IMG/VR virus record: IMGVR_UViG_3300032294_001087
Span: 1 to 52,377 of that record
Direction: 5' to 3' (one strand)
Origin: a virus
Taxonomy: Duplodnaviria > Caudoviricetes
DNA length: 52,377 nucleotides
Within the stretch, counting starts at the first letter, position 1. Every line of letters begins with the position of its first letter. Below the pieces are notes generated by a model. The model had not been told where the DNA came from and did no database searches. It saw nothing but the letters and a program-made list of their open reading frames with translations. Of the stretch, positions 11,392 through 50,832 are shown one piece after another. A program made the position numbers and the translations under genes.

Positions 11392-11420
11392 TTGACAACT
11401 ACACCAAAATGTGTTATACT
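11392..11420 (+). promoter_or_regulatory. Sigma70 (early) promoter
   Basis: TTGACA-N17-TATACT with extended -10 TG. Confidence 0.85.
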
Positions 11421-11425
11421 GTATT

Positions 11426-11692
11426 ATGGCTGAAATTACTCAGAGTTTAGATTGGGCTGAAGTGCAGATAGCACTAGAAGCACCTGCACATAGGATGAAA
11501 CGCTACACTGGCGATATGCTGAAAATGAGCAGTGCTATAGGACACATGGTTAAAAAACTGTCAGAAGAAGAAATTAACTGCCGCAGGCAAGGTCGCCAGA
11601 CCCAACGACACAAGGAATTGTTAGTACAAATCAACCAAGAAATAGCTAATTATGAAGCATATCTTACTTTTGGTGTTCTATTAAATGGTTGA
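11426..11692 (+). CDS. Hypothetical early protein, probably leaderless
   Basis: ATG 11426 follows the -10 box by 5 nt. The listed GTG 11411 lies inside the promoter. Confidence 0.7.
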   Translation: MAEITQSLDWAEVQIALEAPAHRMKRYTGDMLKMSSAIGHMVKKLSEEEINCRRQGRQTQRHKELLVQINQEIANYEAYLTFGVLLNG

Positions 11693-11717
11693 CAAATCTA
11701 CCAAAAGATAGTATAAT
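11689..11717 (+). promoter_or_regulatory. Sigma70 (early) promoter
   Basis: Perfect TTGACA-N17-TATAAT. Confidence 0.9.
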
Positions 11718-11740
11718 ACACATAATAAAGGAGTGACTAA

Positions 11741-11965
11741 ATGCATGATTTTATTAGAAAACTATGGGATAGCAAGGCCACAATAGCTGTTATATTGTGG
11801 ATAGCCGTATTTGCTTGGGCCTACAATTTAGATTGGGTTAAAAAGCCAATCGTCCAACATAAGCCCATTGGTAGGACTATCGAAGAAATCATGGCTACTC
11901 CGGTGGACACTGTCCAACAAGCCCCCTGGGACAACGATTTTAAATCAGCAGTGGAGCCTATCTAA
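11741..11965 (+). CDS. Small membrane-anchored hypothetical protein
   Basis: SD AAGGAG, hydrophobic segment ATIAVILWIAVFAWAY. Confidence 0.75.
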   Translation: MHDFIRKLWDSKATIAVILWIAVFAWAYNLDWVKKPIVQHKPIGRTIEEIMATPVDTVQQAPWDNDFKSAVEPI

Positions 11966-12138
11966 TGGAATATAAATGGAGCCAACCCTACCCTGGTGAA
12001 AGCCGTTATGAACGATTGTTCCGTGCTCAACGTATCCTACAGCTATCACGCCACGTCATGCTGTTAGACACTGTTGAGCCAGTCAAAGATTTAACAGAAG
12101 CGAATAAATATCTCATGAAGTTTAGATTGGAGAAATAG
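11965..12138 (+). CDS. 57-aa hypothetical protein (absent from the ORF track)
   Basis: TAATG overlap with the upstream stop, SD GGAG, MEYKWSQPYPGESRYERLFRAQ...FRLEK. Confidence 0.7.
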   Translation: MEYKWSQPYPGESRYERLFRAQRILQLSRHVMLLDTVEPVKDLTEANKYLMKFRLEK

Positions 12139-12139
12139 T

Positions 12140-12352
12140 ATGGGAACACCTGTATATATGGAAATAGAAGAAGCCTATAGCATCGTCCAATGGCACGGTG
12201 AAGAATATGGCCATCGCAATCTCTTTGGAGCCCTAAACAGCATGGAAGAAAATTGGGATGATCTAGACAGCATGGAACGTGCGGCCTACAAGCAGGTCAA
12301 ACGTGAATTAGAAAAAAGTATAGTCGAATCTGAAGGTGGGTCTATTGACTAG
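12140..12352 (+). CDS. Hypothetical protein
   Basis: SD GGAG, tightly packed in the early operon. Confidence 0.7.
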   Translation: MGTPVYMEIEEAYSIVQWHGEEYGHRNLFGALNSMEENWDDLDSMERAAYKQVKRELEKSIVESEGGSID

Positions 12353-12545
12353 TGCAGAAGCACATCAACAGGCGTTAGAGCATGAACAATGGGCGAACGA
12401 ACATCATGAGTGTTCGGTTTGCTCTTGTGACTACACCGATGACGAAGGCGGTATCACAGGTTATATAGGTATATTGCCGGCTAGTTTCTGTCCAACTTGC
12501 CTAAGTGGTATAATTGATATGGTTGAACAGTTGACAGCAGAATAA
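12336..12545 (+). CDS. Small zinc-finger-like protein
   Basis: CSVC...CPTC cysteine pairs, GTG start. Confidence 0.6.
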   Translation: MGLLTSAEAHQQALEHEQWANEHHECSVCSCDYTDDEGGITGYIGILPASFCPTCLSGIIDMVEQLTAE

Positions 12546-12558
12546 AATCCTGTATAAT
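12531..12558 (+). promoter_or_regulatory. Sigma70 (early) promoter
   Basis: TTGACA-N16-TATAAT. Confidence 0.75.
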
Positions 12559-12582
12559 TAAGTTTAAATAAGAGAGGACACG

Positions 12583-13770
12583 ATGGCGATCAAGATTGAC
12601 GGAATGAAAAAGAAAGCTAAAATTGCCAATATCAATTTCAGCGATGAAAAATACACTGGTACAGAACCTAAATGGGACTATGATCGTGCCTTGACTTTTT
12701 CAGATGAAGAATTTGACCATCACCTACGTAAGAGTTTCCGTTACTATAACTATTACTACAGTCCCAAAGATCTTAAAAAATATGTAGTAGCTTGGTTGCG
12801 CCAACACGAAGGTGATAAGGGTGTTCATGTCTTAGACAAAACCACTATCGATCAATATGCACGTTCAGCAGATAATCTCACACCATTTACCGTCTGCGCT
12901 TTAATCAAAGCCCACGAACAGGGAATGCCTTTGCGTGACAAACACGTAGAATATATCCTTGATGCTATTAAGCGTGTGCTATTATTAAAGGTAGATGAAG
13001 AAGAGGAAGAAAAGAAAATAGACGCTAAACCTCAAGTAAAGATTCCGACGATCCAAGATCGCATGAACGAAGTAGCTAAGAAACATATCCTTTATTTTGA
13101 GATCCTTGAAGATACACTATTCGCAGGCGAAACTGTAGACCCTAAAGCCTATGAATATCTAGTCAAGAACACGGTACCACAGGCATTGATAGGTAAGATA
13201 CAGGCAGTGTTTGAGCCACGCTATGCTGAACTTAAAGAAGCACGCAAAGGCGAATGCGAACAGCTAAAAGAAGCTTACAGCCACTACAAAGCCGCAGACT
13301 ATAAACGCTGTGAAGCATTCTATGACCGATTATTCCAAGACCTAGCCGCTTACAATCAGACTAAGAAAGCCACAAAGAAAGCCGCAGTACGCAAACCACC
13401 ACAAAAAGAAAAACTAGTCAAGGGCTTGAAATATCTCAAACAAGACACTGCACTCAAGATCGTGTCAATTAATCCAGTAGACATCGTTGGTGCAGAAGTC
13501 TTATGGGTCTACAATGTTAAAAATCGCAAGTTAGGCAAATATGTAGCAGAAGCCATGGGTGGTGTACTAGGTGTTAAAGGTACTACGATCACAGGCTACG
13601 ACGCTAACAAAAGTACACAAAAAACACTACGTAAACCGGATGAACAGATCAAACAATTCCTAGCTTCAAGTAAAGTTGAATTACGCAAGTATCTTGAAAA
13701 TATCAGGACCACAGAGATCAAACTCAACGGACGTATCAACGCTGATACTATCTTACTAAAAGCAAACTAA
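12583..13770 (+). CDS. Conserved T4-like phage protein of unknown function
   Basis: SD GAGGA. C-terminal LWVYN.K.RKL..Y...GVKGTTI...KTLRKP...LNGRIN...ILL pattern recognised from T4-like phages. Confidence 0.7.
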   Translation: MAIKIDGMKKKAKIANINFSDEKYTGTEPKWDYDRALTFSDEEFDHHLRKSFRYYNYYYSPKDLKKYVVAWLRQHEGDKGVHVLDKTTIDQYARSADNLTPFTVCALIKAHEQGMPLRDKHVEYILDAIKRVLLLKVDEEEEEKKIDAKPQVKIPTIQDRMNEVAKKHILYFEILEDTLFAGETVDPKAYEYLVKNTVPQALIGKIQAVFEPRYAELKEARKGECEQLKEAYSHYKAADYKRCEAFYDRLFQDLAAYNQTKKATKKAAVRKPPQKEKLVKGLKYLKQDTALKIVSINPVDIVGAEVLWVYNVKNRKLGKYVAEAMGGVLGVKGTTITGYDANKSTQKTLRKPDEQIKQFLASSKVELRKYLENIRTTEIKLNGRINADTILLKAN

Positions 13771-37941: not shown

Positions 37942-38396
37942 TGTGGTATAGCCGCGTAGTAGCAAGTTTAGGTAGTATTCCTGATTTCATACAACATTAT
38001 GAACGGGAATTAGATGAAGCACGAAAGGAAGTGGGAGTCTATGGTAACATAGAAAAGAATCTTGCTGGCCTGCCCGGAATTACAGAACGACGTTTCAATC
38101 AGCTACAAGAGATCGAAGCAGTTCTTAATTACCTCAACATTCAGTTAAGAAAAATACGCAAGAAACACTTCCAGAAGTATCTAGAAGGATACGCTCGTGC
38201 TTTAACATCTAGAGACGCAGAAAAATATGTTGATGGTGAAGACGAAGTTATTGACTTTGAAACGATCATCAATGAAGTAGCATTATTGCGCAACAAATGG
38301 TTGGGTATTATGAAAGGTCTTGAAAGCAAGAACTTCATGCTAGGACACGTTACACGCTTAAGAACAGCTGGTATGGAGGACGCATCGATTGGCTAG
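37941..38396 (+). CDS. uvsY: Recombination mediator UvsY-like
   Basis: Helical 151 aa near uvsX, KY..Y...L...D..KYVDGE and K.L..K.F.L....RLR.AG motifs. Confidence 0.75.
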   Translation: MWYSRVVASLGSIPDFIQHYERELDEARKEVGVYGNIEKNLAGLPGITERRFNQLQEIEAVLNYLNIQLRKIRKKHFQKYLEGYARALTSRDAEKYVDGEDEVIDFETIINEVALLRNKWLGIMKGLESKNFMLGHVTRLRTAGMEDASIG

Positions 38397-39297
38397 AGAT
38401 AGTTTAAGTATTTTAGAACTCATACAACAGTACGATAACTTTTTAGAAAGTCTAAAATTTATCGCAGATATGGGATGTGGAGCAGGCAAAGATACCGAAT
38501 GGTGGGCAAATTTACTTAATAATGACGATCCACCAAAACCTTACAATTTTTCTGTTTATGCAGTAGATACTGATGCCAATAAACTTGCACAAATACCCGC
38601 AAAGAATAACATTTATAAATTCCACGATCGTTACGACAAAGAAAATTTGTTTCCGGTGCCGGTAGATTTTATATGGTCACACGATAGTCTACAATATAGT
38701 ACTGATCCATTGAATACTTTGCGTATGTGGAATAGTTATATGAACACTAATGGTATGCTGGCTATAGTCGTGCCTCAGCACACAGGTATAGAATACTACA
38801 GACAATTTAGCAAGGCCTACAACGGGTGCGTTTATCACTATACACCTTTGATGTTGATTTACATGTTGGCAGTAAATGGATTTGACTGTCGCGATGCCTA
38901 TCTTTTAAAACAATTTAATGACCCATGGATCCAAATTGCAGTTTATAAAAGCAATATAGCCCCGATGGATCCTAATACTACATCTTGGTTTGATTTAGCA
39001 GACTGCGGGTTATTACATCCTAGTATTGTGGATAGTTTAAATTCTAATGGATATATTAAACAAGAAGAAATTTGTATGCCTTGGCTTGATAAAGAGCTTT
39101 ATTTTATTGATTACATGAGTCAACGCATGGAAACACCACCAGCTACTGAAGAAACAGGAGCCATCCAGGGACAGTCAGTTGAGTCTAATCAACATATAAT
39201 TAAACAGGCTGTGGAGACCAAAGTAGGCACTCAGTTGCTGAAATCAAAGGTTATTAAAAGCAAGCCGCCGACTAGAAAGAGTTATAAAAACAAATGA
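38389..39297 (+). CDS. Class I SAM-dependent methyltransferase
   Basis: IADMGCGAG motif I, YAVD and DFIWSHDSLQY motifs. TTG start after GGAGGA. Confidence 0.8.
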   Translation: MARDSLSILELIQQYDNFLESLKFIADMGCGAGKDTEWWANLLNNDDPPKPYNFSVYAVDTDANKLAQIPAKNNIYKFHDRYDKENLFPVPVDFIWSHDSLQYSTDPLNTLRMWNSYMNTNGMLAIVVPQHTGIEYYRQFSKAYNGCVYHYTPLMLIYMLAVNGFDCRDAYLLKQFNDPWIQIAVYKSNIAPMDPNTTSWFDLADCGLLHPSIVDSLNSNGYIKQEEICMPWLDKELYFIDYMSQRMETPPATEETGAIQGQSVESNQHIIKQAVETKVGTQLLKSKVIKSKPPTRKSYKNK

Positions 39298-40046
39298 TTA
39301 ATCGTGTAGTATTAGTCACTGGTGGGTTCGATCCTTTACATTCAGGACACATAGATTATTTCCGTGCGGCCAAGAGATTGGGTGACGTCCTAGTAGTTGG
39401 AGTAAACAGCGACAGTTGGCTACGCCGTAAAAAAGGTCGAGAGTTCATGCCCAGCTACGAACGTATACAGATCATTGAAAATCTTCGTATGGTAGATCAC
39501 TGTATCTTGTTTAACGATACAGAAGATCATGCTATAGAAGCCATCCGCAATGTCAAAACCATGTACCCTAACAGTGAAATCATCTTCGCCAATGGCGGGG
39601 ATCGCACAGCTGATAATATCCCAGAGATGAGTGAGACAGACGTCAAATTTGAATTTGGTGTAGGTGGCGAAACGAAAAAGAATAGCAGTAGTTGGATCCT
39701 TGATGAATGGAAAGCACCTAAGACAGATCGCCCTTGGGGATATTATCGTGTATTACACGAAGTAATTGGAACCAAAGTTAAAGAACTCACGATTAATCCA
39801 GGGCACAGCCTAACCATGCAACGACATTATGATCGCGATGAACATTGGCATGTATCTGAAGGCCGTTGTCATGTTGATTTTGAAGACGCAACAACTGAAA
39901 GCCACGTTAAACTTAAACAGCATGATCAGTTCACGATCAAAGCAGAATGCTGGCATCGTCTACACAACCCCTATGATACCCCTTGTAAAATAGTTGAAAT
40001 CCAATACGGGATTGCCTGCGAAGAAGATGATATAGAACGCAGATAA
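39294..40046 (+). CDS. Cytidylyltransferase (TagD/RfaE-like) fused to a mannose-6-P isomerase-type cupin
   Basis: TGGFDPLHSGH, GVNSD, ANGGDR and K.NSSS motifs, then RPWG.Y...Q.H..R.EHW...H.L.N...VEIQYG..EDDIER. Confidence 0.88.
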   Translation: MINRVVLVTGGFDPLHSGHIDYFRAAKRLGDVLVVGVNSDSWLRRKKGREFMPSYERIQIIENLRMVDHCILFNDTEDHAIEAIRNVKTMYPNSEIIFANGGDRTADNIPEMSETDVKFEFGVGGETKKNSSSWILDEWKAPKTDRPWGYYRVLHEVIGTKVKELTINPGHSLTMQRHYDRDEHWHVSEGRCHVDFEDATTESHVKLKQHDQFTIKAECWHRLHNPYDTPCKIVEIQYGIACEEDDIERR

Positions 40047-40056: not shown

Positions 40057-41502
40057 ATGATGAAAAACTTACTTACAATAATTAAAGAAAATGAAGAATT
40101 AGCCGCTAATCCGCAAACTGGGCAAGTAGATCAGTTAATTAAAGATATTAAAGCCGGTGAAATTGCACCCACGGTTGTGCAGGCAGTTAGTAACTATGTA
40201 AGTAAAAAAATAGCCCAAAAACAACAGCAGTCAGCAGAACCACAAAAACAACCAGTAGCCCAACAACCCGCAGAGATAAATCCTGTAACAGAACCAGAAG
40301 TAACTCCTGATGATCAAGAAGAAAAAGATCTAGCTGAAGCAGTAGCGATGGCCATGCCAGCAGGTATTACTCTTAAACCAGATGAACTACGTAAATTTCT
40401 ATTAAAAGGTGGCTTTAAAAGCGATGAAGTTAACGATATTGTTACCTTTGCATATAGACAGACTATCGAATTGGCCTGTAAAGAAATCGCCTCGGTGAAG
40501 CTGTATAAAGCAGAAGCGGCTGATATGCTAGCACAGCTATTCTTTAAAATTCCTGGCACATTAAGTCAGCGTAATCATATAGCTAAAGTATTAACAACCA
40601 CTGGTGTACTAGATCTTAAGAAATTAACTAAACCTGGGATCGGAACATTAGATGATTTATTACTGCCAGAATATAGATCAAATCCTATAGTGGTGAACTT
40701 AAAATTAAAACTTAAATCACGCAGTGATTTCCCTACACAGGTAAGTGCTGCAAACAAAGGCGCAGGCGAAGATCTAATTACTATCTTAGGTAATCCTGTT
40801 AATAAATTAAGTCCAGGCGATTTAAATATTGCTGGTAAAGAAATTGAAATCAAAGGTATGGGTGCTAGATTAAAAGGCTTTGGCGGTACTAGTGTTTATG
40901 GTGATGCCGCACGTATCTATAAAGAGTGGGCGGGACTAATGATACAAGCCTTGGGACCTGCAGGATTAGAAGTATTAGAAGGATCGGGTGCTAGCCTTAA
41001 AACTTATCTACATTTCAGTTTAAAGAATTTAAATGCCTTAAATGATGCTGTACAAGTTAGTAAAGTACCACAACGCGGCAAGTATATTCGCATGGCATTT
41101 GAATTACTATTAGAAACACTGTACGTACAAAGCGATAGCAAGATGAGAGAAATTGTCTTACGTAGCTTTAATACAAAAACAGGTATGTTTAACGTTGAAG
41201 AATTAAGAAAGAATTGGTTTTTATTCAGTTATGAATATTATAAACTAACTACAGCTGATAAGAAAACAGGACAACAGATGCACGCTATCATGTTCTTAAA
41301 TCAAGGTGATGAAACGTATCAAATTGTCACAGATAGACAGCAGTTAGAAACTAATCTCGACAGTTATCAACTTGGTACAGACTTATTTAATTGGACCAAT
41401 CCCACAGGACAAGCACCAAAAGTAACATTAGGTAAAGAAGTTAGGGTACAACGTAAAAGAGCATCAAGAGACACACCATCAGCTGAAAGAAAAAAACGTT
41501 GA
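40057..41502 (+). CDS. Late protein with a PD-(D/E)xK nuclease-like motif
   Basis: KGAGEDLITIL...PGDLNIAGKEIEIKG, N-terminus MKNLLTIIKE. Confidence 0.5.
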   Translation: MMKNLLTIIKENEELAANPQTGQVDQLIKDIKAGEIAPTVVQAVSNYVSKKIAQKQQQSAEPQKQPVAQQPAEINPVTEPEVTPDDQEEKDLAEAVAMAMPAGITLKPDELRKFLLKGGFKSDEVNDIVTFAYRQTIELACKEIASVKLYKAEAADMLAQLFFKIPGTLSQRNHIAKVLTTTGVLDLKKLTKPGIGTLDDLLLPEYRSNPIVVNLKLKLKSRSDFPTQVSAANKGAGEDLITILGNPVNKLSPGDLNIAGKEIEIKGMGARLKGFGGTSVYGDAARIYKEWAGLMIQALGPAGLEVLEGSGASLKTYLHFSLKNLNALNDAVQVSKVPQRGKYIRMAFELLLETLYVQSDSKMREIVLRSFNTKTGMFNVEELRKNWFLFSYEYYKLTTADKKTGQQMHAIMFLNQGDETYQIVTDRQQLETNLDSYQLGTDLFNWTNPTGQAPKVTLGKEVRVQRKRASRDTPSAERKKR

Positions 41503-41527
41503 CCTTAACGTAATAATCTGTTATACT
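41499..41527 (+). promoter_or_regulatory. Sigma70 promoter
   Basis: TTGACC-N17-TATACT with extended TG. Confidence 0.8.
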
Positions 41528-41560
41528 TAAATGTAAATTCAATCACTAATGGAGTATTCA

Positions 41561-41806
41561 ATGTCTATCAAAGCTGTTAATACCGTAGAACGATATAATA
41601 TCGATAATTGCATCAAACCATTCGATGGCAATAGGTTCCAAATGATCTTAGCGGGAGCATTACGTGCCCGTGAAATTGCTAGCAAACGCACTATCGCAGA
41701 TAAAAATGGTGATCGCACCAAACACGCAAATAAACCCACAGTTGAAGCTCTTTGTGAAATTGACCAAGGTAAATTTGGTGCAGAATACTTAAACAAACTT
41801 AAATAA
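41561..41806 (+). CDS. rpoZ: RNA polymerase omega subunit homolog
   Basis: NRFQMILAGALRAREIA...KPTVEALCEIDQGK matches the omega pattern NRF.L.L.A..RAR.....KPTV.AL.EI..G. SD GGAG supports ATG 41561. Confidence 0.85.
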   Translation: MSIKAVNTVERYNIDNCIKPFDGNRFQMILAGALRAREIASKRTIADKNGDRTKHANKPTVEALCEIDQGKFGAEYLNKLK

Positions 41807-41815
41807 GGAATTATA

Positions 41816-42010
41816 ATGGCAAAAACTAACTCAAGTTTCAATCTTTCAAAAACCACTAAAAAATTAGCAGGTGGAATTCAAGATCCACACACACGTAGAA
41901 AATTTTTAGATCTGATGATTGAAGCAGAAGCCGCCCAAGCTGCCGGTAAAAATCGTAAATTTAGTGATCCAGCAACCAGTCAACGCCCTAGTAGAGAGAC
42001 AGCAACTTAA
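41816..42010 (+). CDS. Small basic hypothetical protein
   Basis: SD AAGGA, in an operon with rpoZ. Confidence 0.7.
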   Translation: MAKTNSSFNLSKTTKKLAGGIQDPHTRRKFLDLMIEAEAAQAAGKNRKFSDPATSQRPSRETAT

Positions 42011-42414
42011 TGGAAAAAAAATTATGGGATAGCATCGAACGATCGATGCTTAAAAGTCTGCCAAATGCAGCTAGAGGCTATGAACAACGGATCAGTATTC
42101 CAGAATTTACATTCTTAGGCGGTGCTAATCAACCAGATTTTGGTGATGTAACTATTTGGTTTTATGGTAAAGAAAAAACCATAGAATTAAAAAGCCTCAA
42201 GCAATACATCTTCCAATATCGAGATACTAGATTGAGTTATGAGCGAGCACTAGATGTTATGTATAAAGATCTCATGGCAGTATATGAACCCGATCGTATA
42301 CGTATAGAAATTGAATATCGTCCACGCGGCGGTATAAGTAGTAGAATGACCGTAGATAGTGATTGGGGACACCTAGGTGGCACTGATCAATTATGGCAAC
42401 ATCATAAGGACTAA
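42010..42414 (+). CDS. queF: QueF-like T-fold protein lacking the catalytic cysteine
   Basis: PEFT....[12 protein letters not shown] (QueF motif), SYE and PRGGI motifs. No Cys anywhere in the protein. Confidence 0.75.
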
Positions 42415-42415
42415 C

Positions 42416-43702
42416 ATGGATTACAAAATTAAAGATATTAGCCTAGCGGCCTGGGGACATAAAGAGATCGCTATCGCTGAAACAGAAATGCCGGGTCTTA
42501 TTTCGGTAAGAGAAGAGTATAGAGATCAACAACCACTTCGAGGTGCTCGTATAGCTGGTAGTCTACACATGACTATCCAAACAGCGGTTCTAGTAGAAAC
42601 ACTAGTGGCGTTAGGTGCTGAAGTTAGATGGAGTTCATGTAATATATTTTCAACTCAGGATCACGCCGCTGCCGCACTTGCTGATCAAGGCATACCTGTA
42701 TTTGCTTGGAAAGGTGAAACAGAAGAAGAATACTGGTGGTGTATTGAACAGACAGTCAGTGGTCCCAACGATTGGCAGCCAAATATGTTGCTAGATGACG
42801 GACATGATCTAACTTGGTGGGTACACAACAAACACCCAGATCTATTAGAAGGTATCCGTGGAGTAACAGAAGAAACCACCACTGGTATCCACAAGATCAA
42901 TGAGGCGATAAAAGACGGTAAATTCAAGCTACGTGCTATTAACGTTAATGATAGTGTAACAAAAGCTAAATTTGATAACTTGTATGGTTGCCGTGAAAGC
43001 CTAGTAGATGGCATCAAACGTGCCACTGATGTGATGATCGCAGGTAAAATCGCTGTGGTAGCAGGCTTTGGTGATGTAGGTAAAGGATCAGCCGCGGCAT
43101 TGCGAGCACTGTCAGCACAGGTATGGGTAACTGAGATCGATCCGATCTGCGCCTTACAAGCCGCAATGGAAGGCTACAAGGTAGTTACTATGGACTATGC
43201 CGCAGACAAAGCAGATATCTTTGTAACAGCCACAGGTAATATCGATGTTATCACTCGTGCGCACATGTTGAAGATGAAACACAACAGCATCGTCTGTAAC
43301 ATTGGACACTTTGACAGTGAGATCGACATTGCTGGTATACAGGATCTGGCATGGGATGAAATCAAACCGCAGGTAGATCACGTAACCTTACCTAACGGCA
43401 ATAAGATTATTATCCTAGCCAAAGGTCGACTAGTCAATCTAGGTTGTGCTACAGGCCATCCTAGTTATGTGATGTCTAATAGTTTTACAAATCAAGTATT
43501 AGCACAGATTGAAATGTTCAATAACACTGAAAATTACAATATCGGGCACTTATATCTACTACCAAAACATTTGGATGAGAAGGTTGCCCAATTACATTTG
43601 GCTAAGATTGGTGCAGAACTAACAGCCTTGACCGCTGAACAAGCCACGTATATTGGCGTTGCGGCGGAGGGTCCATATAAACCTGATAGTTATCGTTATT
43701 AA
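42416..43702 (+). CDS. ahcY: S-adenosylhomocysteine hydrolase
   Basis: [70 protein letters not shown] and GPYKP..YRY motifs. SD AAGGA supports ATG 42416. Confidence 0.98.
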
Positions 43703-43821: not shown

Positions 43822-44985
43822 ATGAAAAAATCATTAATCGCAACAATGCTAGCAGGTTTGTTCGCAACATCAGCAAACGCTGGTATTGTTATCCCAGCAG
43901 GTGACTGGACACTAGACATCAACGGTAACGTTAACGCTTTTGCAAACTACACTAAAGCGCACGGTGACAATGCAATCACAGGTGGTCTAGCAGCTCGTCC
44001 AGACTCAAGAGGTGAGGACAAGGCTATGGGTATCAACACTGGCCTATTACCATCATGGTTAGGTTTCACAGGTAAGACTCGCCAAAATGATACTGATGTA
44101 GAATTCACTATCAGCTTCCAACCAAACGTAAGTGACAATTCGAGAGCAGGTGATGAACTAGCTCCACTTAATCGTCAAGCATACGTGAGTTTTGGTGATA
44201 AGTCATGGGGCTCTATCAAGTTAGGTAAAGACCTAGGTATTTTCGCTAGCGATGCTATCTTAAACGATATGACATTATTAGGCGTTGGTGCTGGTGCTGG
44301 TATCAGCGGTGCTACAACAACATTAGGTGGTATTGGTAGTGGTTACATCTATCCAGCATGGAAAGGTCAAATCGCATATACAACACCTAACTTCAACGGA
44401 TTACAAGCAACTGTTGGTATTACTAATCCAAATCAAGCAAGTGCTAATCAACTTAACCAAGATCGTTTTGGTCTAGAAGGTAAAGTATCTTACACATTTG
44501 ACACAAATGGTATCAATACTAAAGTTTGGACATCAGGTGCAAGTTACAAAGTAACACCCGCAACTGGTGCTGAATACAATGCTTGGGCGGCTGACGTTGG
44601 TGCTACAGCAACACTTGGTAAGTTTGGCCTAACTGGTTATTACTATCGAGGTGAAGGTGCTGGTACGACAACATTTGGTGCAAACGGTGTTGACGCATCG
44701 GGTCAAAGACGTGATTCAGATGGTTACTATGTCCAAGGTACATACGTATTGCCGATCAAGACAAAACTTGGTCTAGCATATGGTAAGTCAAATCTTGACA
44801 AAGCTAACAGCAGCGACAGTGCTAGCCTAGTTGACTACAACGAACGCTACACAGTTGGTGCATATCACCCACTTACTAAGCACTTAAACTTAGTAGCTGA
44901 GTATAATCGCGTTGAGTCACAGGCACACAGTGGCGCGACTAACAAGAGCGACACTATCTCAACAGGTGCTATCTTATTCTTCTAA
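43822..44985 (+). CDS. Gram-negative outer membrane porin
   Basis: Signal peptide MKKSLIATMLAGLFATSANA, RQAYV.F....WG.I.LGKD and I.YTTPNFNG motifs, amphipathic strands, C-terminal Phe. Confidence 0.9.
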   Translation: MKKSLIATMLAGLFATSANAGIVIPAGDWTLDINGNVNAFANYTKAHGDNAITGGLAARPDSRGEDKAMGINTGLLPSWLGFTGKTRQNDTDVEFTISFQPNVSDNSRAGDELAPLNRQAYVSFGDKSWGSIKLGKDLGIFASDAILNDMTLLGVGAGAGISGATTTLGGIGSGYIYPAWKGQIAYTTPNFNGLQATVGITNPNQASANQLNQDRFGLEGKVSYTFDTNGINTKVWTSGASYKVTPATGAEYNAWAADVGATATLGKFGLTGYYYRGEGAGTTTFGANGVDASGQRRDSDGYYVQGTYVLPIKTKLGLAYGKSNLDKANSSDSASLVDYNERYTVGAYHPLTKHLNLVAEYNRVESQAHSGATNKSDTISTGAILFF

Positions 44986-45310: not shown

Positions 45311-45348
45311 CGTTATAGCAGTAAATTCAACAAATATTGGAGAAATCA

Positions 45349-46380
45349 ATGTCAAAAACCGTCTTAGTGACTGGCGGTGCGGGTTTTATCGCACACCACG
45401 TTATTGAAAAAATCCTAAGAGAAACCGATTGGAATGTGGTCAGCCTAGACCGTTTAGACTTTTCAGGTAATCTTAATCGCCTAAATGATATGGCACAGGA
45501 TCTAGATCCTGAAGTACGTAAACGTGTCAAAGTAGTATTCCATGATCTGCGTGCAGAACTAAACCCAATGGTAGCCAGAGATATTGGTGATGTGAATTAT
45601 GTCCTACACTTGGCCGCTGGTAGCCATGTTGATCGTTCAATTGAATTTCCAATGGAATTCGTATTTGACAACGTAGTTGGTACAGGTCATATCTTAGAGT
45701 TCGCTCGTAAGTTAAAAAATCTAGAACGTTTCATCTACTTCTCAACAGACGAAGTATTTGGTCCAGCACCATTGGGTGTTAACTACGGTGAGCGTGATCG
45801 CTATAATTCAAGCAATCCATACTCAGCTACTAAAGCTGGTGGTGAAGAACTAGCAGTGGCATTTGAAAATACCTATAAGATGCCAATCTACATCACTCAT
45901 ACCATGAACGTATTTGGTCAACGACAACACCCAGAGAAGTTTATTCCTATGTGTATTCGTAAGGTAAACGATGGCGACACTATCACTATCCACAGTGATG
46001 CGTCGAGAACTATTCCAGGTAGTCGTTACTATATCCATGCGGCAGACGTAGCAGATGCTATGTTGTTCTTGCTGGGATTAGATGATACTAAACTAGAACC
46101 AGACTACGGTGATGCTAAATGTCCTAAGTTTAATCTAGTAGGCAAGCAAGAAATCAATAATCTACAACTAGCACAGATTATCGCTGATGCGCAAGGAAAA
46201 GAATTGAAGTACGAAATGGTTGACTTCCATAGCTCACGCCCAGGACATGACCTACGTTATGCTCTAAGCGGTGACTACATGCGCAGTTTAGGTTGGGAAC
46301 CTAAGGTAGAATTAACAGAACGTATCGGTCAAGTAGTACAATGGACGCTGGCAAATGAACGCTGGTTACGTTGCGAATAA
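45349..46380 (+). CDS. rfbB: dTDP-glucose 4,6-dehydratase-like
   Basis: TGGAGFI, HLAA.SHVDRSI, STDEVFG, PYSATK, Q.PEKFIP and RPGHDLRYA motifs. Confidence 0.9.
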   Translation: MSKTVLVTGGAGFIAHHVIEKILRETDWNVVSLDRLDFSGNLNRLNDMAQDLDPEVRKRVKVVFHDLRAELNPMVARDIGDVNYVLHLAAGSHVDRSIEFPMEFVFDNVVGTGHILEFARKLKNLERFIYFSTDEVFGPAPLGVNYGERDRYNSSNPYSATKAGGEELAVAFENTYKMPIYITHTMNVFGQRQHPEKFIPMCIRKVNDGDTITIHSDASRTIPGSRYYIHAADVADAMLFLLGLDDTKLEPDYGDAKCPKFNLVGKQEINNLQLAQIIADAQGKELKYEMVDFHSSRPGHDLRYALSGDYMRSLGWEPKVELTERIGQVVQWTLANERWLRCE

Positions 46381-46389
46381 AGGACACTT

Positions 46390-47127
46390 ATGAAAAATAT
46401 CGTATTATTAACATCAGCAGTTTATACTAACTATGGTATCTATAAACCAGCAGAACGTATCCAACAAACACTAGACACAGCTAAGAGTGCTAAGAAATAT
46501 ATTCCTGGCGCAGTAGTTATCCTAGTAGACAACAGCAAAGTTGACGTGCAGAATGATACTAGTGCAGAGTTTGAAGAACTTATTGACTTAGTTGACTATT
46601 ACATCGATAACAGCGATGATGCTGATATCCAATATTTCCATAATAATGTTGCTAACTATGATATCGGTAAGAATGCCATGGAAGCCATGGGTCTTATGAA
46701 AGCATTGACTTATATCAATGGTGACGAAGATATGAAAAAAATCATTGCTGATGCTGATCGTATTTTCAAACTCAGTGGTCGTTATCAAGTGACAGACAAG
46801 TTTGATATCACTAAGTTCAGCAACGCTAATACCAAAGACAAATATGTGTTTAAGCGAGCACAACCTAGTTGGATCAATCCAGCAGACACTGGTGTAAACA
46901 CACTATTACAAACACGTCTATGGTCATTTACTCCGGGCTTGTTGTTAGAGACCATGGATATCTATAAGAATATCATTGAAAACATGGTTAAGATGTTTAA
47001 TGAAAACAAATACATCGACAATGAACATAGTATGTCAAAATTTATTCCTAAAGATCGATTAGTTGAGTTAGAAACAGTGGGTCTTGTTGGTAACATCGCG
47101 CCAAATGGAATGATGATCATTGACTGA
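46390..47127 (+). CDS. Hypothetical protein of the sugar cluster, possibly glycosyltransferase-like
   Basis: TSA...R..QT..T..S, LVDNS and FKLSGRY motifs, SD AAGGA. Confidence 0.45.
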   Translation: MKNIVLLTSAVYTNYGIYKPAERIQQTLDTAKSAKKYIPGAVVILVDNSKVDVQNDTSAEFEELIDLVDYYIDNSDDADIQYFHNNVANYDIGKNAMEAMGLMKALTYINGDEDMKKIIADADRIFKLSGRYQVTDKFDITKFSNANTKDKYVFKRAQPSWINPADTGVNTLLQTRLWSFTPGLLLETMDIYKNIIENMVKMFNENKYIDNEHSMSKFIPKDRLVELETVGLVGNIAPNGMMIID

Positions 47128-48056
47128 TGAAAAAGGTCCTGATACTAGGTGGTAATGGTTACATTGGCAGTAGACTGCGTCAAGTCTTGCGTGAACAGCA
47201 CTTTGTAAAATCAAACGATATCTGTTGGCATGCCTACGACGAAACTAGTGATCGCAGAGATTATCATAAACTTACCCGTGAAGAACTAGCAGAGTTTGAA
47301 GTAATTATTGTCTTGGCTGGTCACAGCAGTGTACCAAGTTGCATTGGTGAACTACCGGGACCATGGTTAAACAATGTCACTAACTTCACCGACCTGTTAG
47401 ATAAAACGACAGATCAGCTGATCATCTATGCTAGTAGTGCTAGTGTCTATGGTAACAGCAAGCCCGGTGAGCGACATAAGGAAATCAATACACACTTTAC
47501 TCCTGTTAATAATTATGACGTAACCAAACATGCATTAGATCAACAGGCTATCATTGCTAACTTGCGTGGTAAACGTGTAATTGGTCTACGTTTTGGTACC
47601 GTTAATGGTTGGGCACCTAACCTACGTGTTGATGTCATGATTAACAGCATGTATCACAGTGTGCAGAGTGGTCGAGGTATACAGGTTATGAATCGCCAGA
47701 TCAGTCGTGCTATGTTAGGCATAGAAGATCTATGTCGTGCTGTATTGCGATGCATAGAACAACCAGTATCTGGTATCTACAACTTGGCCAGTTTCAACAG
47801 TACAGTGGGAGAAATCGCCCAGGCAGTCAGTCAAAAGCTGGGGGTTGCTATAGTAGACAAGGGCACAACTGCCAATGCCTATGATTTTGCTATCGATACT
47901 ACCTTATTTGAACAAACATTTGATTTTACATTTACAGAAACACCTGCTACTATAGTAGATAGTTTAATAGAAAGCTACGAACAGTCGACTCCACAGTGGA
48001 GAGACAAATACGTAATTTATAATTGGGAACGAGAAGACTTATATGGAAGACGCTAA
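47127..48056 (+). CDS. NAD-dependent epimerase/dehydratase (extended SDR)
   Basis: GGNGYIGS, YASSASVYG, YDVTK and LRFGTVNG motifs. Confidence 0.9.
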   Translation: MKKVLILGGNGYIGSRLRQVLREQHFVKSNDICWHAYDETSDRRDYHKLTREELAEFEVIIVLAGHSSVPSCIGELPGPWLNNVTNFTDLLDKTTDQLIIYASSASVYGNSKPGERHKEINTHFTPVNNYDVTKHALDQQAIIANLRGKRVIGLRFGTVNGWAPNLRVDVMINSMYHSVQSGRGIQVMNRQISRAMLGIEDLCRAVLRCIEQPVSGIYNLASFNSTVGEIAQAVSQKLGVAIVDKGTTANAYDFAIDTTLFEQTFDFTFTETPATIVDSLIESYEQSTPQWRDKYVIYNWEREDLYGRR

Positions 48057-49251
48057 ACAACTTAAAGAATGCCTTTGCTGTGGTAGTGAGAGATTAAAAC
48101 TAGTATTAGATCTTAAAGAACAGCCATTAGCTAACAGTTTTAAGAAAACATCAGAGGAAACAGAACCATATTTCCCATTACGTTTAAACATCTGCGAAGA
48201 CTGCACACATCTACAATTAAGCCATGCGGTTAATCCGGATTTATTATTTAAGAACTATCTATATGTCAGTGGCACAAGCCAAACCCTACGTGACTACTTT
48301 GATTGGTTTGCTAAAGAAACACTTACCTACGCACCAGATGCTAAGACAGTGTTAGACATCGCCTGTAACGACGGTAGTCAATTAAACAGTTTCAAAGCAC
48401 TAGGATTAAAAACCTATGGTGTTGATCCCGCAGAAAATTTACACAAACTAAGTAACGCCAATCACGAAGTAGTGTGTGATTACTTTACTGACAAATATAC
48501 ATATCATTATAAGAATAAAAACTTAGATATTATTACAGCACAGAATGTGTTCGCACACAATAGCTATCCATTAGAGTTTTTACAGCAATGTAAAGAAATC
48601 ATGAGTGATACTAGTGTGTTATTCATACAGACCAGCCAAGCAGATATGATCAAGAACAATGAGTTTGATACTATCTATCATGAACATCTGAGTTTCTTCA
48701 ATTCAAGTTCAATGTCTGCGCTAGCGACACGTGCCGGATTACATATCATCGACATACAAAAAACGCCCATCCATGGTAATAGTTATTTGTTCGTTATGTC
48801 TAAGAATCCAGGAGCGAGATCAAGCGTTCAACATCAATTAGATCAAGAACGAGAACAAGGTCTACAGGATATGAATACCTATTCGGCCTATGCTGATCGT
48901 TGCTATACTATCGTAGAAGATCTCAATGAGACTATCCAACATTATCGTGGTCTGGGATATGTCATTGCGGGCTATGGCGCCGCAGCCAAAGGCATGACAT
49001 TGATTAATTTTGGTGATGTCAACTTGGATTTCGTCATAGATGACAATCCTCTAAAACAGGGATTGTTCTGTCCTGGTAGCAACATACCAGTGGTAGGAAT
49101 TGACATGTTAGACGAATGCCAAGATGTCCAAGTAGCATTTATACCATTGGCTTGGAATTTCTTCACTGAAATCCGTAGCAAAATTAAGACCAAACGTGAC
49201 CAAGAAGGTGATGTGTTCATCAAGTATTTTCCTAAAATAAGTATCGAGTGA
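48043..49251 (+). CDS. NDP-sugar C-methyltransferase
   Basis: N-terminal CLCC..QPLAN..C..C..LQL Zn domain, DIACNDG, NVFAH, FDTIYHEHLSFF, IHG.S, GYGAAAKG, DDNPLKQG..PGS and AWNF motifs. Confidence 0.9.
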   Translation: MEDAKQLKECLCCGSERLKLVLDLKEQPLANSFKKTSEETEPYFPLRLNICEDCTHLQLSHAVNPDLLFKNYLYVSGTSQTLRDYFDWFAKETLTYAPDAKTVLDIACNDGSQLNSFKALGLKTYGVDPAENLHKLSNANHEVVCDYFTDKYTYHYKNKNLDIITAQNVFAHNSYPLEFLQQCKEIMSDTSVLFIQTSQADMIKNNEFDTIYHEHLSFFNSSSMSALATRAGLHIIDIQKTPIHGNSYLFVMSKNPGARSSVQHQLDQEREQGLQDMNTYSAYADRCYTIVEDLNETIQHYRGLGYVIAGYGAAAKGMTLINFGDVNLDFVIDDNPLKQGLFCPGSNIPVVGIDMLDECQDVQVAFIPLAWNFFTEIRSKIKTKRDQEGDVFIKYFPKISIE

Positions 49252-50036
49252 TGTCAAAAAAAACCTTAATCAGTCACTTCTATAATGAAGAGTACATGCT
49301 ACCATGGTTCCTTAACCATCACAAGCAGATATTTGATCATGGGGTAATGATTGATTATCACTCAACAGATCGTAGCCGTGAGATCATCAAGGAAATATGT
49401 CCTACCTGGGATATCGTTACAAGCCGCAATCAAGATTTCCAAGCAGATACTATTGATACAGAAGTCAATGATATCGAACGTAATATCCAAGGGTGGAAGA
49501 TCTGTCTTAACGTAACAGAACAACTAATCGGCGACTATAGTATATTAGATGACACCCCTCGCCAATTACTAGTGCCTGGCGTGTTCTTTGTTGACTGTGA
49601 TCGTGAACGCACTGTTACCTATGATTTACCACTATATGAACAAAAGACAGATGGATTTATGTTCAGCGACAATGCACAGAACTTTTTTGAGCGTCGTAGC
49701 CGTAGCCTACATAATATTCCTGTGCATTATCCAGCACAATCAACAGTCGAATGTATGGCGCCCGGACGGCACTGGAATACCTATAACACAGATAAACTAG
49801 TAACATTCTACTACGGTTGGTGCCCATTTGATCAAGGACAACTAGCACGTAAGCTACAGATACAAACGCAAATACCACTAATTGATCGCCAATTAAATCG
49901 TGGCTTTCATCATATTACAAATAAAGAAACATTAACCTATAGACTTGAAAATGAGTTTATTCCTCGTTCAAGAGATATCTCAAAGGAAATACAGCAGTAT
50001 GTCAACAAACACAAAGATTTTTCAAATATACTTTAA
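49248..50036 (+). CDS. Glycosyltransferase family 2-like protein
   Basis: YNEEYMLPWFLNHH..IFDH..MIDYHSTDRS motif. The DxD position reads NVTE. Confidence 0.65.
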   Translation: MMSKKTLISHFYNEEYMLPWFLNHHKQIFDHGVMIDYHSTDRSREIIKEICPTWDIVTSRNQDFQADTIDTEVNDIERNIQGWKICLNVTEQLIGDYSILDDTPRQLLVPGVFFVDCDRERTVTYDLPLYEQKTDGFMFSDNAQNFFERRSRSLHNIPVHYPAQSTVECMAPGRHWNTYNTDKLVTFYYGWCPFDQGQLARKLQIQTQIPLIDRQLNRGFHHITNKETLTYRLENEFIPRSRDISKEIQQYVNKHKDFSNIL

Positions 50037-50832
50037 ACCAGAGCTTGTGGCGCATTGTGATCCAGCATTCACTCCATTGGATAATACTGAAAATCCTCGC
50101 CCAGAATTACGTGAATGGTATGTATGGGACAAGGAACATAAAAACATCCTGGCGCAAGAATTAGATTATTGGGGATTCGTCAGTTGGAAATTCCAAGAGA
50201 AAACTGGCTTAACAGGCCAACAGGCTTTTGATTTTATTAATAATAATCCAGGGTATGATGTTTATCTATTCAATCCCTGTATTGTCAATGAAGCTGTATT
50301 TGCTAACAGTTGGGAACAAGGCGACATACATCATCCTAACATCAGCGGCATCGGTAACACATTTTTTGCCAAACTTGGTTATGAAGATATTGATGTTAAA
50401 TCGATAATTTTAGATCGCAACAAGACAGTGTTCGCTAACTATGTTGTTGGCAATCAAAAGTTTTGGACTAAGTTTATGGAATTCAGTCGTAATCTATTTA
50501 CAGAAGCAGACAAGGATCCTGGATTTAAACAACAGGTATTTGGGGAAGGATTGAGTAATTATGTCCATGATCGTAGTTTGCCAAACTTTACATTTTTAAT
50601 CGAACGATTGATCCCAACATTTTTAGAATTAGAAGAGTTGACTAGTATTGGATATAAATACTCTCCTGAAACTTTACCAGAAAAATATCGTCCTTATGCT
50701 GGAGATATTATGGCACTTAGTGATTTAAAAGTTGCTGTAAATCGCTACAATTCAGACGAATTATACGATATTTGGAACTTTTATCGCCACAAATTTCTAA
50801 GCCAACATCAAGGCATTTTAGGATTAGAATAG
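49999..50832 (+). CDS. Hypothetical glycosyltransferase-associated protein
   Basis: IFQIYF, DN.......RE, YWGFVSWKF..K and F..ERL motifs. Start placed at ATG 49999. Confidence 0.45.
   Translation: MSTNTKIFQIYFKPELVAHCDPAFTPLDNTENPRPELREWYVWDKEHKNILAQELDYWGFVSWKFQEKTGLTGQQAFDFINNNPGYDVYLFNPCIVNEAVFANSWEQGDIHHPNISGIGNTFFAKLGYEDIDVKSIILDRNKTVFANYVVGNQKFWTKFMEFSRNLFTEADKDPGFKQQVFGEGLSNYVHDRSLPNFTFLIERLIPTFLELEELTSIGYKYSPETLPEKYRPYAGDIMALSDLKVAVNRYNSDELYDIWNFYRHKFLSQHQGILGLE

What the first reader, a model, noticed from the sequence alone, without database searches (positions are those of the whole stretch)
41561..41806. Phage-encoded RNA polymerase omega with an altered ppGpp-contacting N-terminus
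Seen: an intact omega core, but the proteobacterial MAR(V/I)T start is replaced by an extension, MSIKAVNTVERYNIDNC. Knowledge: omega N-terminal residues form ppGpp site 1 with beta' in E. coli RNAP, and omega aids RNAP assembly. Inference: a replacement omega that could blunt the stringent response or favour the phage late sigma factor. The tail GKFGAEYLNKLK resembles short betaproteobacterial omegas.
Basis: partly seen in the sequence, partly recalled or inferred. Interest (0 to 1): 0.75.

Follow-up and report, generated by a model that had tools for sequence, protein, structure and literature searches.

The report
Jumbo-phage copy of RNA polymerase omega
An uncultured giant phage carries its own diverged copy of the smallest subunit of bacterial RNA polymerase, with a rebuilt tip where the starvation alarm molecule ppGpp normally binds, so it may retune the host's polymerase.

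Summary
The ORF is real (41561-41806, +, 81 aa) and is a true but strongly diverged RNA polymerase omega. It passes the Pfam RNA_pol_Rpb6 and TIGR00690 rpoZ cut-offs narrowly. Its model has an omega fold.

The window is a fragment (about 15%) of a T4-like jumbo phage. The same omega type lies on 74 viral contigs, one a complete 329-kb genome. Its N-terminal motif gave no omega relative in 185,579 species genomes. It is under purifying selection (median dN/dS 0.165). A strong sigma-70-type promoter precedes it in 43 of 45 loci.

The Arg is kept (R11 = E. coli R3), Ala2 becomes a near-invariant Glu10, and a 4-15-residue extension precedes it.

A complex model with beta' of the likely host lineage (Methylophilaceae, inferred from a phage-borne porin) scores 0.79 against 0.00 for controls. 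It lays residues 7-10 and 13-17 on beta' 362, 417, 615 and 619, the ppGpp site-1 wall. This pass may come from the model's memory of solved polymerases.

Related phages carry a gp55-type late sigma, no detectable beta or beta', and often a SutA-like polymerase-binding gene beside omega. The effect on ppGpp is untested. I found no paper on phage-encoded omega.

The parts
41499..41527 (+). sigma-70-type promoter: -35 TTGACC (41499-41504), 17-nt spacer, TG-extended -10 TATACT (41522-41527). It overlaps the stop of the upstream gene.
   Evidence: 10 of 12 consensus matches with TG. TTGACN-N16-18-TANNNT lies within 130 nt upstream of omega in 43 of 45 related loci, against 145 hits in 396,970 nt on the + strand of the same loci, about 0.055 per 150 nt.
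41551..41554 (+). GGAG ribosome-binding site, 6 nt before the ATG at 41561
   Evidence: Read. The same GGAG/AGGA spacing is visible in the upstream sequences printed.
41561..41806 (+). phage omega (RpoZ/Rpb6 homologue), 81 aa plus stop. Residues 1-8 are a variable extension, 7-17 the conserved NTVERYNIDNC motif, 23-71 the omega core.
   Evidence: Pfam 29.9 bits vs cut-off 26; TIGR00690 26.4 vs 23.6; AF2 pLDDT 79.6 with four helices; all 50 Foldseek rows listed are short chains of RNA polymerase or RpoZ entries; complex model 0.79 vs best control 0.00; median dN/dS 0.165.
41816..42010 (+). conserved 64-aa basic ORF directly downstream (possible partner, function unknown)
   Evidence: Adjacent to omega in 14 of 14 close loci and within 1 kb downstream in 34 of 68 viral loci. 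No Pfam, PHROG or NCBIfam hit. AF2 gives two helices, pLDDT 76. Not related to the SutA-like ORF that fills the same slot elsewhere (hhalign probability about 0.1%).
40057..41502 (+). fast-evolving 481-aa gene upstream. It is context, not shown to belong to the omega function.
   Evidence: No blastp match at 1e-5 in any of 14 otherwise syntenic loci. Only weak links (24-36% identity) among the 266-558-aa genes that fill this slot in other loci. No Pfam family.

Best explanation
The gene encodes a phage version of the RNA polymerase omega subunit. It is most likely transcribed early by the host sigma-70 holoenzyme from its own strong promoter. The protein then takes the omega place on the beta' subunit of the host core polymerase, probably of a Methylophilaceae betaproteobacterium. 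The phage needs that core throughout infection, because relatives carry a T4 gp55-type late sigma but no detectable beta or beta'. The N-terminus is conserved and virus-specific: an extension, then V-E-R-Y-N-I-D-N-C in place of M-A-R-V/I-T-V-E/D-D-C. It lies on the beta' wall of ppGpp site 1 and so changes how that pocket responds to the alarmone. The likeliest effect is weaker or blocked binding, because an acidic Glu and a peptide bond replace the free Ala2 amino terminus. Shown: homology, fold, viral location, purifying selection, promoter conservation. Modelled only: docking on beta' and the position of the N-terminus. Inferred: early timing, exchange with host omega, and any effect on ppGpp.
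For: Family membership. Fold: and all 50 Foldseek rows listed are short chains (59-89 residues) of RNA polymerase or RpoZ entries, probability 0.80-1.00. Viral location: the window is a virus record with TerL, tail sheath, UvsX, UvsY and gp32. Synteny holds in 14 of 14 close loci. There are 74 viral loci, including a complete 329-kb genome with terminal repeats. Virus-specific N-terminus: Glu10 in 143 of 146 and V/I9 in 143 of 146 distinct phage-type sequences, Arg11 in 118 of 146. The motif gave 58 pattern matches but 0 omega relatives in genomes of 185,579 species. 30 of 30 parsed cellular omegas start MAR[VIL]T. A branch with SH-aLRT 100 separates 33 cellular-type rows from 67 viral or metagenomic rows (quick tree). 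Function kept: median dN/dS 0.165 over 303 pairs. Early promoter: 43 of 45 loci. Docking: ipSAE 0.79 (runs 0.78, 0.81, 0.79) against a best control of 0.00. That mark was reached by 58 of 80 solved complexes and 2 of 110 mismatched pairs. The runs share at least 91% of contacts and partner pLDDT is at least 75. The interface holds beta' 362, 364, 417-419, 613-615, 618-619, 474-488, 915-920 and 1368-1380, and omega 7-10, 13-15, 17 and the core. Those beta' residues are the site-1 residues named in PMC7676912 (passages). In the likely host lineage they are K362, K417, K615, I619, D622. Host lineage: the phage porin is 57-63% identical to Methylophilaceae porins. Those genomes have a canonical MARIT omega beside spoT. 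Dependence on host core: 0 of 5 large relatives hit Rpb1_1, Rpb1_2, Rpb2_6 or Sigma70_r2, while 4 of 5 hit the gp55-type late sigma. Polymerase theme: a SutA RNAP-binding-domain ORF follows omega in 23 of 68 loci.
Against: No experiment exists and no RNA data were available. The complex pass may be the model's memory of the many solved polymerase-omega structures, and it used beta' fragments and my own alignments. Arg11, the equivalent of the ppGpp-contacting Arg3, is kept in most sequences and is not among the confidently packed interface residues. So the pocket could still bind ppGpp, and the direction of any effect is unknown. Residues 1-8 have pLDDT under 50 in the monomer model. The host is inferred from one gene. 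The gene is not universal. Only 5 of 30 UvsY-related contigs with at least 5 kb downstream have it there, and 1 of 5 larger relatives has it elsewhere. The nearest cultured phages PA5oct, Atu_ph07 and Phosso have none. Pfam models could miss very diverged phiKZ-type polymerase subunits. In E. coli, loss of omega gives only a modest downshift phenotype (PMC7676912 passage), so the gain to a phage is not obvious.
Confidence: 0.42

Rival explanations
1. It joins host polymerase as omega, but its purpose is to offer a phage-specific docking surface for phage factors (the adjacent 64-aa or SutA-like proteins, or the gp55-type late sigma apparatus), or to shift sigma competition. ppGpp is not the point.
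For: Omega is followed within 1 kb by one of two small conserved ORFs in 57 of 68 loci, one of them a SutA RNAP-binding-domain protein. A gene-transfer-agent activator is reported to act through direct contact with omega (PMC9638019, title and abstract seen in the listing). A gp55-type sigma is present in 4 of 5 large relatives.
Against: The most conserved virus-specific part is the N-terminal motif, which the model buries against beta' and does not expose. The two neighbour families are unrelated to each other and 11 of 68 loci have neither. No interaction was tested.
Confidence: 0.25
2. It is a plain supply or chaperone copy. It keeps omega available for beta' folding and polymerase stability while host gene expression is shut down. 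The odd N-terminus is lineage drift with no regulatory meaning.
For: Omega is described as a chaperone for beta' (PMC7598289 passage; PMC5811629 abstract). The omega core and the predicted core interface are intact.
Against: Drift does not explain near-invariance of N7-C17 across 121 close sequences and of V/I-E across 146 sequences. The relatives searched encode no detectable beta' whose folding would need help. The Pfam score of 29.9 bits, against mostly 50-85 bits in 60 of 61 sampled cellular genomes, shows directed divergence.
Confidence: 0.15
3. It does not act on host polymerase. It serves an unrecognised phage polymerase or acts as a decoy for a host protein that binds omega.
For: Pfam models may miss very diverged phage polymerase subunits. 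The window covers only about 15% of the genome.
Against: A complete 329-kb relative with omega has no hit to four beta/beta' models but has a gp55-type sigma, which works with host core (T4 record annotation). Known jumbo-phage multisubunit polymerases lack omega (PMC7598289 passage). The docking model on host-lineage beta' passes.
Confidence: 0.1
4. The gene is host DNA in a mis-binned contig, or a decaying passenger gene.
For: Public 'phage' records do contain bacterial rpoZ: 9 INPHARED records match a cellular omega. The two examined sit in gmk-rpoZ-spoT context.
Against: Here the neighbours are phage genes on both sides, and the arrangement recurs on many viral contigs. The sequence type gave no omega relative in cellular genomes. 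dN/dS is low.
Confidence: 0.02

Closest known systems
Bacterial RNA polymerase omega subunit (RpoZ; Pfam PF01192, TIGR00690), especially the proteobacterial MAR(V/I)T type
   Same: Same family by curated cut-offs and same helical fold. It keeps the core motifs (NRF..., RAR, KP..AL.EI..G), is modelled on the same beta' surfaces, and is 39% identical over 69 residues to a Methylophilaceae omega.
   Different: It is encoded by a phage rather than in gmk-rpoZ-spoT. It has an N-terminal extension of 4-15 residues, Glu in place of Ala2, and Tyr-Asn in place of Val/Ile-Thr. It has no acidic C-terminal tail. Its family score is far lower than that of sampled cellular omegas.
Phage proteins that retune host RNA polymerase (T4 gp55 late sigma and RpbA; others such as AsiA, T7 Gp2 and Xp10 P7 are recalled, not searched here)
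   Same: The presumed logic is the same: a small phage-made protein binds the host enzyme and changes its regulation. A gp55-type sigma occurs in the same phage group.
   Different: Those proteins are add-on factors with no homology to core subunits. This one is a homologue of a core subunit that would take the subunit's own place.
SutA, the RNA polymerase-binding regulator of slow-growing Pseudomonas aeruginosa (PF20661; PDB 7f0r, 7xl3, 7xl4)
   Same: A SutA RNAP-binding-domain ORF follows the phage omega in 23 of 68 loci. 13 of 13 members match at E<=0.01, and the first member scores 31.8 bits against a cut-off of 29.3. SutA raises transcription under nutrient limitation (abstracts of PMC9300723 and 10.1101/423384 seen in the listing).
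   Different: The window itself has no SutA-like gene. Its 64-aa neighbour is unrelated.
Multisubunit RNA polymerases of phiKZ/AR9-type jumbo phages
   Same: These too are jumbo phages with polymerase-related genes.
   Different: Those enzymes consist of split beta/beta' homologues and lack alpha and omega (PMC7598289 passage). This phage group shows the reverse: omega, but no detectable beta or beta'.
Rpb6/RpoK of archaea and eukaryotes and their homologues in giant eukaryotic viruses (recalled, not searched here)
   Same: Same superfamily, carried by a virus.
   Different: Those viruses encode the whole polymerase that the subunit serves. Here only the small subunit is viral, and its nearest relatives are bacterial.

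Membership tests
RNA polymerase omega / Rpb6 (PF01192, TIGR00690) | Score above the curated family cut-offs | tested here: met
   PF01192 29.9 bits vs 26; TIGR00690 26.4 vs 23.6. Both margins are narrow.
RNA polymerase omega / Rpb6 (PF01192, TIGR00690) | Omega fold (small helical bundle) | tested here: met
   AF2 model pLDDT 79.6 with helices 14-21, 25-48, 59-69, 74-80. All 50 Foldseek rows listed are short chains of RNA polymerase or RpoZ entries, probability 0.80-1.00, TM 0.45-0.62. E-values are weak (0.075 or more), as expected for 81 residues.
RNA polymerase omega / Rpb6 (PF01192, TIGR00690) | Binds beta' at the conserved omega site, including the C-terminal tail of beta' | tested here: inconclusive
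   Model only: ipSAE 0.79 vs best control 0.00. That mark was reached by 58 of 80 solved complexes and 2 of 110 mismatched pairs. Runs share at least 91% of contacts and partner pLDDT is at least 75. Contacts fall on beta' 474-488, 915-920 and 1368-1380. The pass may come from likeness to solved complexes. No binding experiment exists.
Proteobacterial ppGpp-site-1-competent omega | Free N-terminus Met-Ala-Arg-(Val/Ile/Leu)-Thr, residues 2-5 contacting the ppGpp phosphates | tested here: not met
   30 of 30 parsed cellular omegas of the class start MAR[VIL]T. The phage protein has an 8-residue extension and V-E-R-Y-N at the aligned positions. Only the Arg is kept. The role of residues 2-5 is taken from PMC7676912 passages.
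Proteobacterial ppGpp-site-1-competent omega | Chromosomal gmk-rpoZ-spoT neighbourhood | tested here: not met
   The host-lineage copies lie after gmk and beside a RelA/SpoT gene. The phage copy lies between a hypervariable gene and a 64-aa ORF in a UvsX...AdoHcyase block.
SutA-like RNAP-binding proteins (PF20661), considered for the 64-aa neighbour 41816-42010 | Match to the SutA RNAP-binding domain | tested here: not met
   No Pfam hit at E<=1. No PF20661 match anywhere in the window at E<=0.1. hhalign against the SutA-like phage family gives probability about 0.1%.

The most novel reading that the evidence does not exclude
The near-invariant Glu10 and the N-terminal extension act as a built-in plug or mimic in ppGpp site 1, so polymerase carrying the phage omega becomes blind to, or locked with respect to, the starvation alarmone. 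Together with a second small polymerase-binding protein (SutA-like in some lineages, the 64-aa protein here), it forms an early 'anti-stringent' conversion cassette. With it, jumbo phages of slow-growing, nutrient-poor hosts keep the host enzyme transcribing phage DNA. This would be the first case of a virus of bacteria swapping in its own version of a core polymerase subunit.
Probability: 0.22. Interest if true: 0.88.

Novelty: new variant of a known kind. Interest (0 to 1): 0.72.

Why it matters
Phages are known to control host RNA polymerase with add-on inhibitors, activators and sigma factors. I found no report of one that supplies a homologue of a core subunit. Five searches of 8.1 million open papers and 0.36 million preprints found none. 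A review states that jumbo-phage polymerases lack omega.

If the phage omega changes the ppGpp pocket, it gives a natural, evolved variant for dissecting site 1. It would also be a new way for viruses to escape growth-arrest-based restriction.

The family is large (134 clusters at 90% identity, 74 viral contigs). Automated annotation calls its members ordinary omega, so metagenomic studies that use rpoZ as a bacterial marker gene (for example) may be counting viral genes.

Tried and rejected
Host contamination was rejected.

A phage-encoded polymerase as the partner was searched with four Pfam models in five large relatives. There were 0 of 5 hits each time (Sigma70_r2). Very diverged subunits could escape these models.

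Cultured phages: tblastn of three viral omega types against 50,697 phage records gave no match. The Pfam model found nothing in PA5oct, Atu_ph07 or Phosso. A cellular omega query hit 9 records. Of the two examined, one shows an annotated gmk-rpoZ-spoT context, and the 'UNVERIFIED' Campylobacter phage record is collinear with it. The other 7 were not examined.

The weak Pfam hit to the Csm6 HEPN domain (14 bits vs cut-off 27) was dismissed.

The 64-aa neighbour gave no family hit, no usable Atlas hit and no relation to the SutA-like family. Its two-helix model was not sent to a fold search, because such a small fold would match anything.

Expression: no RNA holder was listed for window 40900-42500.

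The careful tree search did not finish in 300 s. The quick IQ-TREE tree is reported instead, and cellular rows came from one class only.

Core-gene status was tested and not met. Supplementary files of papers were closed and not consulted. They might list viral rpoZ annotations that I could not see.

Full report
WHAT IS THERE

GGAG at 41551-41554 lies six bases before this ATG. The alternative ATG at 41549 overlaps that GGAG, so 41561 is the better start.

The protein passes the curated cut-offs of Pfam RNA_pol_Rpb6 (29.9 bits vs 26) and NCBIfam TIGR00690 rpoZ (26.4 vs 23.6). It has no PHROG family. Against PDB sequences, all 20 matches at E<=10 are omega subunits (best E 0.0028).

An AlphaFold2 model built on 66 sequences has mean pLDDT 79.6 and four helices; residues 1-8 are below 50. 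All 50 Foldseek rows listed are short chains of RNA polymerase or RpoZ entries, with probability 0.80-1.00 and weak E-values. The identification as omega therefore holds, by narrow sequence margins and a consistent fold.

IT IS PHAGE-ENCODED

The window is a linear virus record estimated at 15% complete. It carries a large terminase, tail sheath and tube, head-closure protein, gp15-like tail protein, UvsX, UvsY and a gp32-type SSB. Its terminase is closest (51-55% identity) to the jumbo phages PA5oct, Phosso and Atu_ph07.

In 14 of 14 close viral loci the order is the same: UvsX, small ORF, UvsY, methyltransferase, cytidylyltransferase-cupin, a variable gene, omega, a 64-aa ORF, then QueF-like and AdoHcyase.

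A scan with a family alignment found 74 viral loci. One lies in a complete 329-kb genome with terminal repeats, and others lie in records of 114-259 kb.

The N-terminal motif [VI]E[RKQ][YV][ND]ID[NLR]C matched 58 places in one genome for each of 185,579 species. None of them encodes an omega relative.

Protein searches found 134 clusters at 90% identity, with 58-91% identity among the 120 listed. Only 42 representatives pass E<=0.001 among 1.84 billion.

The gene is accessory. Among contigs with a UvsY 77-99% identical, only 5 of 30 with at least 5 kb downstream carry omega there. One of five larger relatives carries it elsewhere. PA5oct, Atu_ph07 and Phosso have none.

THE N-TERMINUS

HMMER and BLAST alignments put query R11-Y-N-I-D-N-C on R3-(V/I)-T-V-(E/D)-D-C of cellular omegas. 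The Arg is retained.

In 121 close sequences, N7 to C17 are nearly invariant, while the first residues vary in sequence and number. Across 146 distinct phage-type sequences that fit the motif (of 152), the residue before the Arg position is Glu in 143, the one before that is Val or Ile in 143, and the Arg position is Arg in 118 and Lys in 13.

In contrast, 30 of 30 cellular omegas that I could parse, from 33 loci of the same bacterial class, start MAR[VIL]T. These cellular genes mostly score 50-85 bits on the Pfam model, against 29.9 for the phage gene.

A quick maximum-likelihood tree separates 33 cellular-type rows from 67 viral or metagenomic rows by a long branch with SH-aLRT 100. The columns are few and only one bacterial class was sampled.

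The gene is under purifying selection. NG86 dN/dS has median 0.165 and range 0.027-0.545 in 303 of 465 pairs with usable dS.

LIKELY HOST AND ITS POLYMERASE

The window carries a Gram-negative porin gene at 43822-44985 (Porin_4) that the related loci lack. Its closest cellular relatives are small-genome Methylophilaceae and a Burkholderiales MAG at 57-63% identity, followed by Methylotenera at about 50-54%. This points to a Methylophilaceae host, but it rests on a single gene.

Those genomes have a canonical omega (MARITVDDCL...) after gmk and beside a RelA/SpoT gene. The phage omega is 39% identical to it over 69 residues.

Their beta' is collinear with E. coli beta'. It has K362, K417, K615, I619, D622 and Y626 at the positions that form ppGpp site 1. 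Passages of PMC7676912 state that residues 2-5 of omega and beta' R417 and K615 coordinate the phosphates, and that I619, D622 and R362 coordinate the base.

DOCKING MODEL

I folded beta' residues 330-950 and 1139-1400 of the Methylophilaceae enzyme (alignment of 29 sequences) with the phage omega (alignment of 66 sequences). The score was 0.79 (three runs: 0.78, 0.81, 0.79) against 0.00 for the best of three controls. That mark was reached by 58 of 80 solved complexes and 2 of 110 mismatched pairs. The runs share at least 91% of contacts, and partner pLDDT is at least 75.

The tool's own caveats apply in full. The calibration used other alignments and single chains. This is a textbook pair with hundreds of solved relatives, so the pass shows likeness, not binding.

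Within that limit, the interface has two parts. One is the classical omega surface: beta' 474-488, 915-920 and the C-terminal 1368-1380. The other is beta' 362, 364, 417-419, 613-615 and 618-619, touched by a set of omega residues that includes 7-10, 13-15 and 17. The conserved virus-specific segment is thus modelled on the wall of site 1.

Arg11 is not among the confidently packed residues, so it may still face the pocket. I therefore regard the pocket as altered and leave the direction of the effect open.

EXPRESSION AND CONTEXT

A sigma-70-type promoter with a TG-extended -10 lies at 41499-41527. The pattern TTGACN-N16-18-TANNNT occurs within 130 nt upstream of omega in 43 of 45 loci from different contigs, including distant lineages. 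The background is 145 hits in 396,970 nt on the same strand of the same loci. This suggests early transcription by the host holoenzyme, but that is an inference. No RNA data were available.

Five large omega-bearing relatives have no hit to Rpb1_1, Rpb1_2, Rpb2_6 or Sigma70_r2. Four of the five, including the complete genome, have a T4 gp55-type late sigma (phrog_234). These phages therefore probably use the host core enzyme throughout infection.

Omega is followed within 1 kb by the window-type 64-aa ORF in 34 of 68 loci, and by a roughly 60-aa ORF in 23 of 68. All 13 members of the second family match the Pfam SutA RNAP-binding domain at E<=0.01. The first member scores 31.8 bits against a cut-off of 29.3. 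A profile of the family also hits Pseudomonas SutA in the PDB (E 0.0039).

SutA is a polymerase-binding factor that raises transcription under nutrient limitation (abstracts seen in the listing). The two neighbour families are unrelated to each other, and the window has no SutA-like gene. Even so, the recurrence of a second small polymerase-directed gene beside omega supports a polymerase-takeover reading.

COMPARISON WITH WHAT IS KNOWN

By family criteria this is an omega. By the criteria of a site-1-competent proteobacterial omega (free MAR(V/I)T terminus, gmk-rpoZ-spoT context) it is not.

It would work like the many phage proteins that retune host polymerase, but it differs in being a homologue of a core subunit. 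Known jumbo-phage multisubunit polymerases lack omega (PMC7598289 passage).

Five full-text searches found no paper describing a phage-encoded omega. I did not see supplements. Source databases already label many of these proteins 'RNA polymerase omega subunit', so the gene call is not new. Its viral nature, its special N-terminus and its context appear to be undescribed.

VERDICT

The functional claims remain untested.

I rate it a new variant of a known kind, interest 0.72. Confidence is about 0.95 that it is a functional phage omega, about 0.75 that it binds host beta', and about 0.4 that it changes the ppGpp response.

Noticed in passing
window 41816-42010 (+): A 64-aa basic ORF always sits next to omega in close relatives (14 of 14 loci; 34 of 68 in the wider set). 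It has an invariant R47-K48 within a conserved RKFSDPA motif, two predicted helices, and no known family.
   Followed up: partly
L071:5453-5647 (+), with 12 further copies in alignment A6: In other lineages the slot after omega holds a roughly 60-aa protein with a SutA RNA polymerase-binding domain (13 of 13 members match PF20661 at E<=0.01). A profile of the family hits Pseudomonas SutA (PDB 7f0r_G, E 0.0039). I have not seen phage-borne SutA-like proteins described.
   Followed up: partly
window 40057-41502 (+): The gene just upstream of omega evolves very fast. It has no match in 14 otherwise syntenic loci. The slot holds genes of 266-558 aa that are linked only by weak similarity, or are unrelated (one is a radical SAM protein, one a DUF6492 protein).
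   Followed up: partly
window 43822-44985 (+): A phage-borne Gram-negative porin (Porin_4) is 57-63% identical to porins of small-genome Methylophilaceae and is absent from related phage loci. It looks like a recent host-derived gene and a host marker.
   Followed up: partly
window 38389-40046 and 42010-43702 (+): Omega is flanked by a methyltransferase, a cytidylyltransferase-cupin fusion, a QueF-like protein (79.2 bits, below the TIGR03139 cut-off of 86.9) and a full S-adenosylhomocysteine hydrolase. Together these suggest nucleotide or DNA modification with SAM recycling.
   Followed up: no
window 45337-50832 (+): A sugar-nucleotide cluster: a GDP-mannose-dehydratase-like protein, a second epimerase, a C-methyltransferase with a zinc-binding domain, and a weak glycosyltransferase hit.
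   Followed up: no
L088:5306-5725 (same arrangement in L053): In the complete 329-kb relative, an HNH endonuclease gene is inserted between omega and the SutA-like gene.
   Followed up: no
L084, L085/L086, L087 and metagenome proteins P0138-P0156: A second group of viral omegas has N-termini of the type S-R-G-P-x-I-D-x-x-K-C. Some lie next to tRNA genes, and one is on a 158-kb viral contig. They group with the phage clade in the quick tree.
   Followed up: partly
phage collection records CAKLQH020000003.1 (L190) and MG065691.1 (L191): Records filed as phages contain bacterial gmk-rpoZ-spoT DNA. The first also carries pilus and ispH genes. The second is marked UNVERIFIED and is collinear with the first over this block.
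   Followed up: partly
window 11392-12596 (+): Four of the window's nine strict TTGACN-N16-18-TANNNT matches on the + strand cluster in or beside the gap between the divergent gene blocks that end at 11358 (- strand) and start at 12583 (+ strand). This may be an early promoter region.
   Followed up: no
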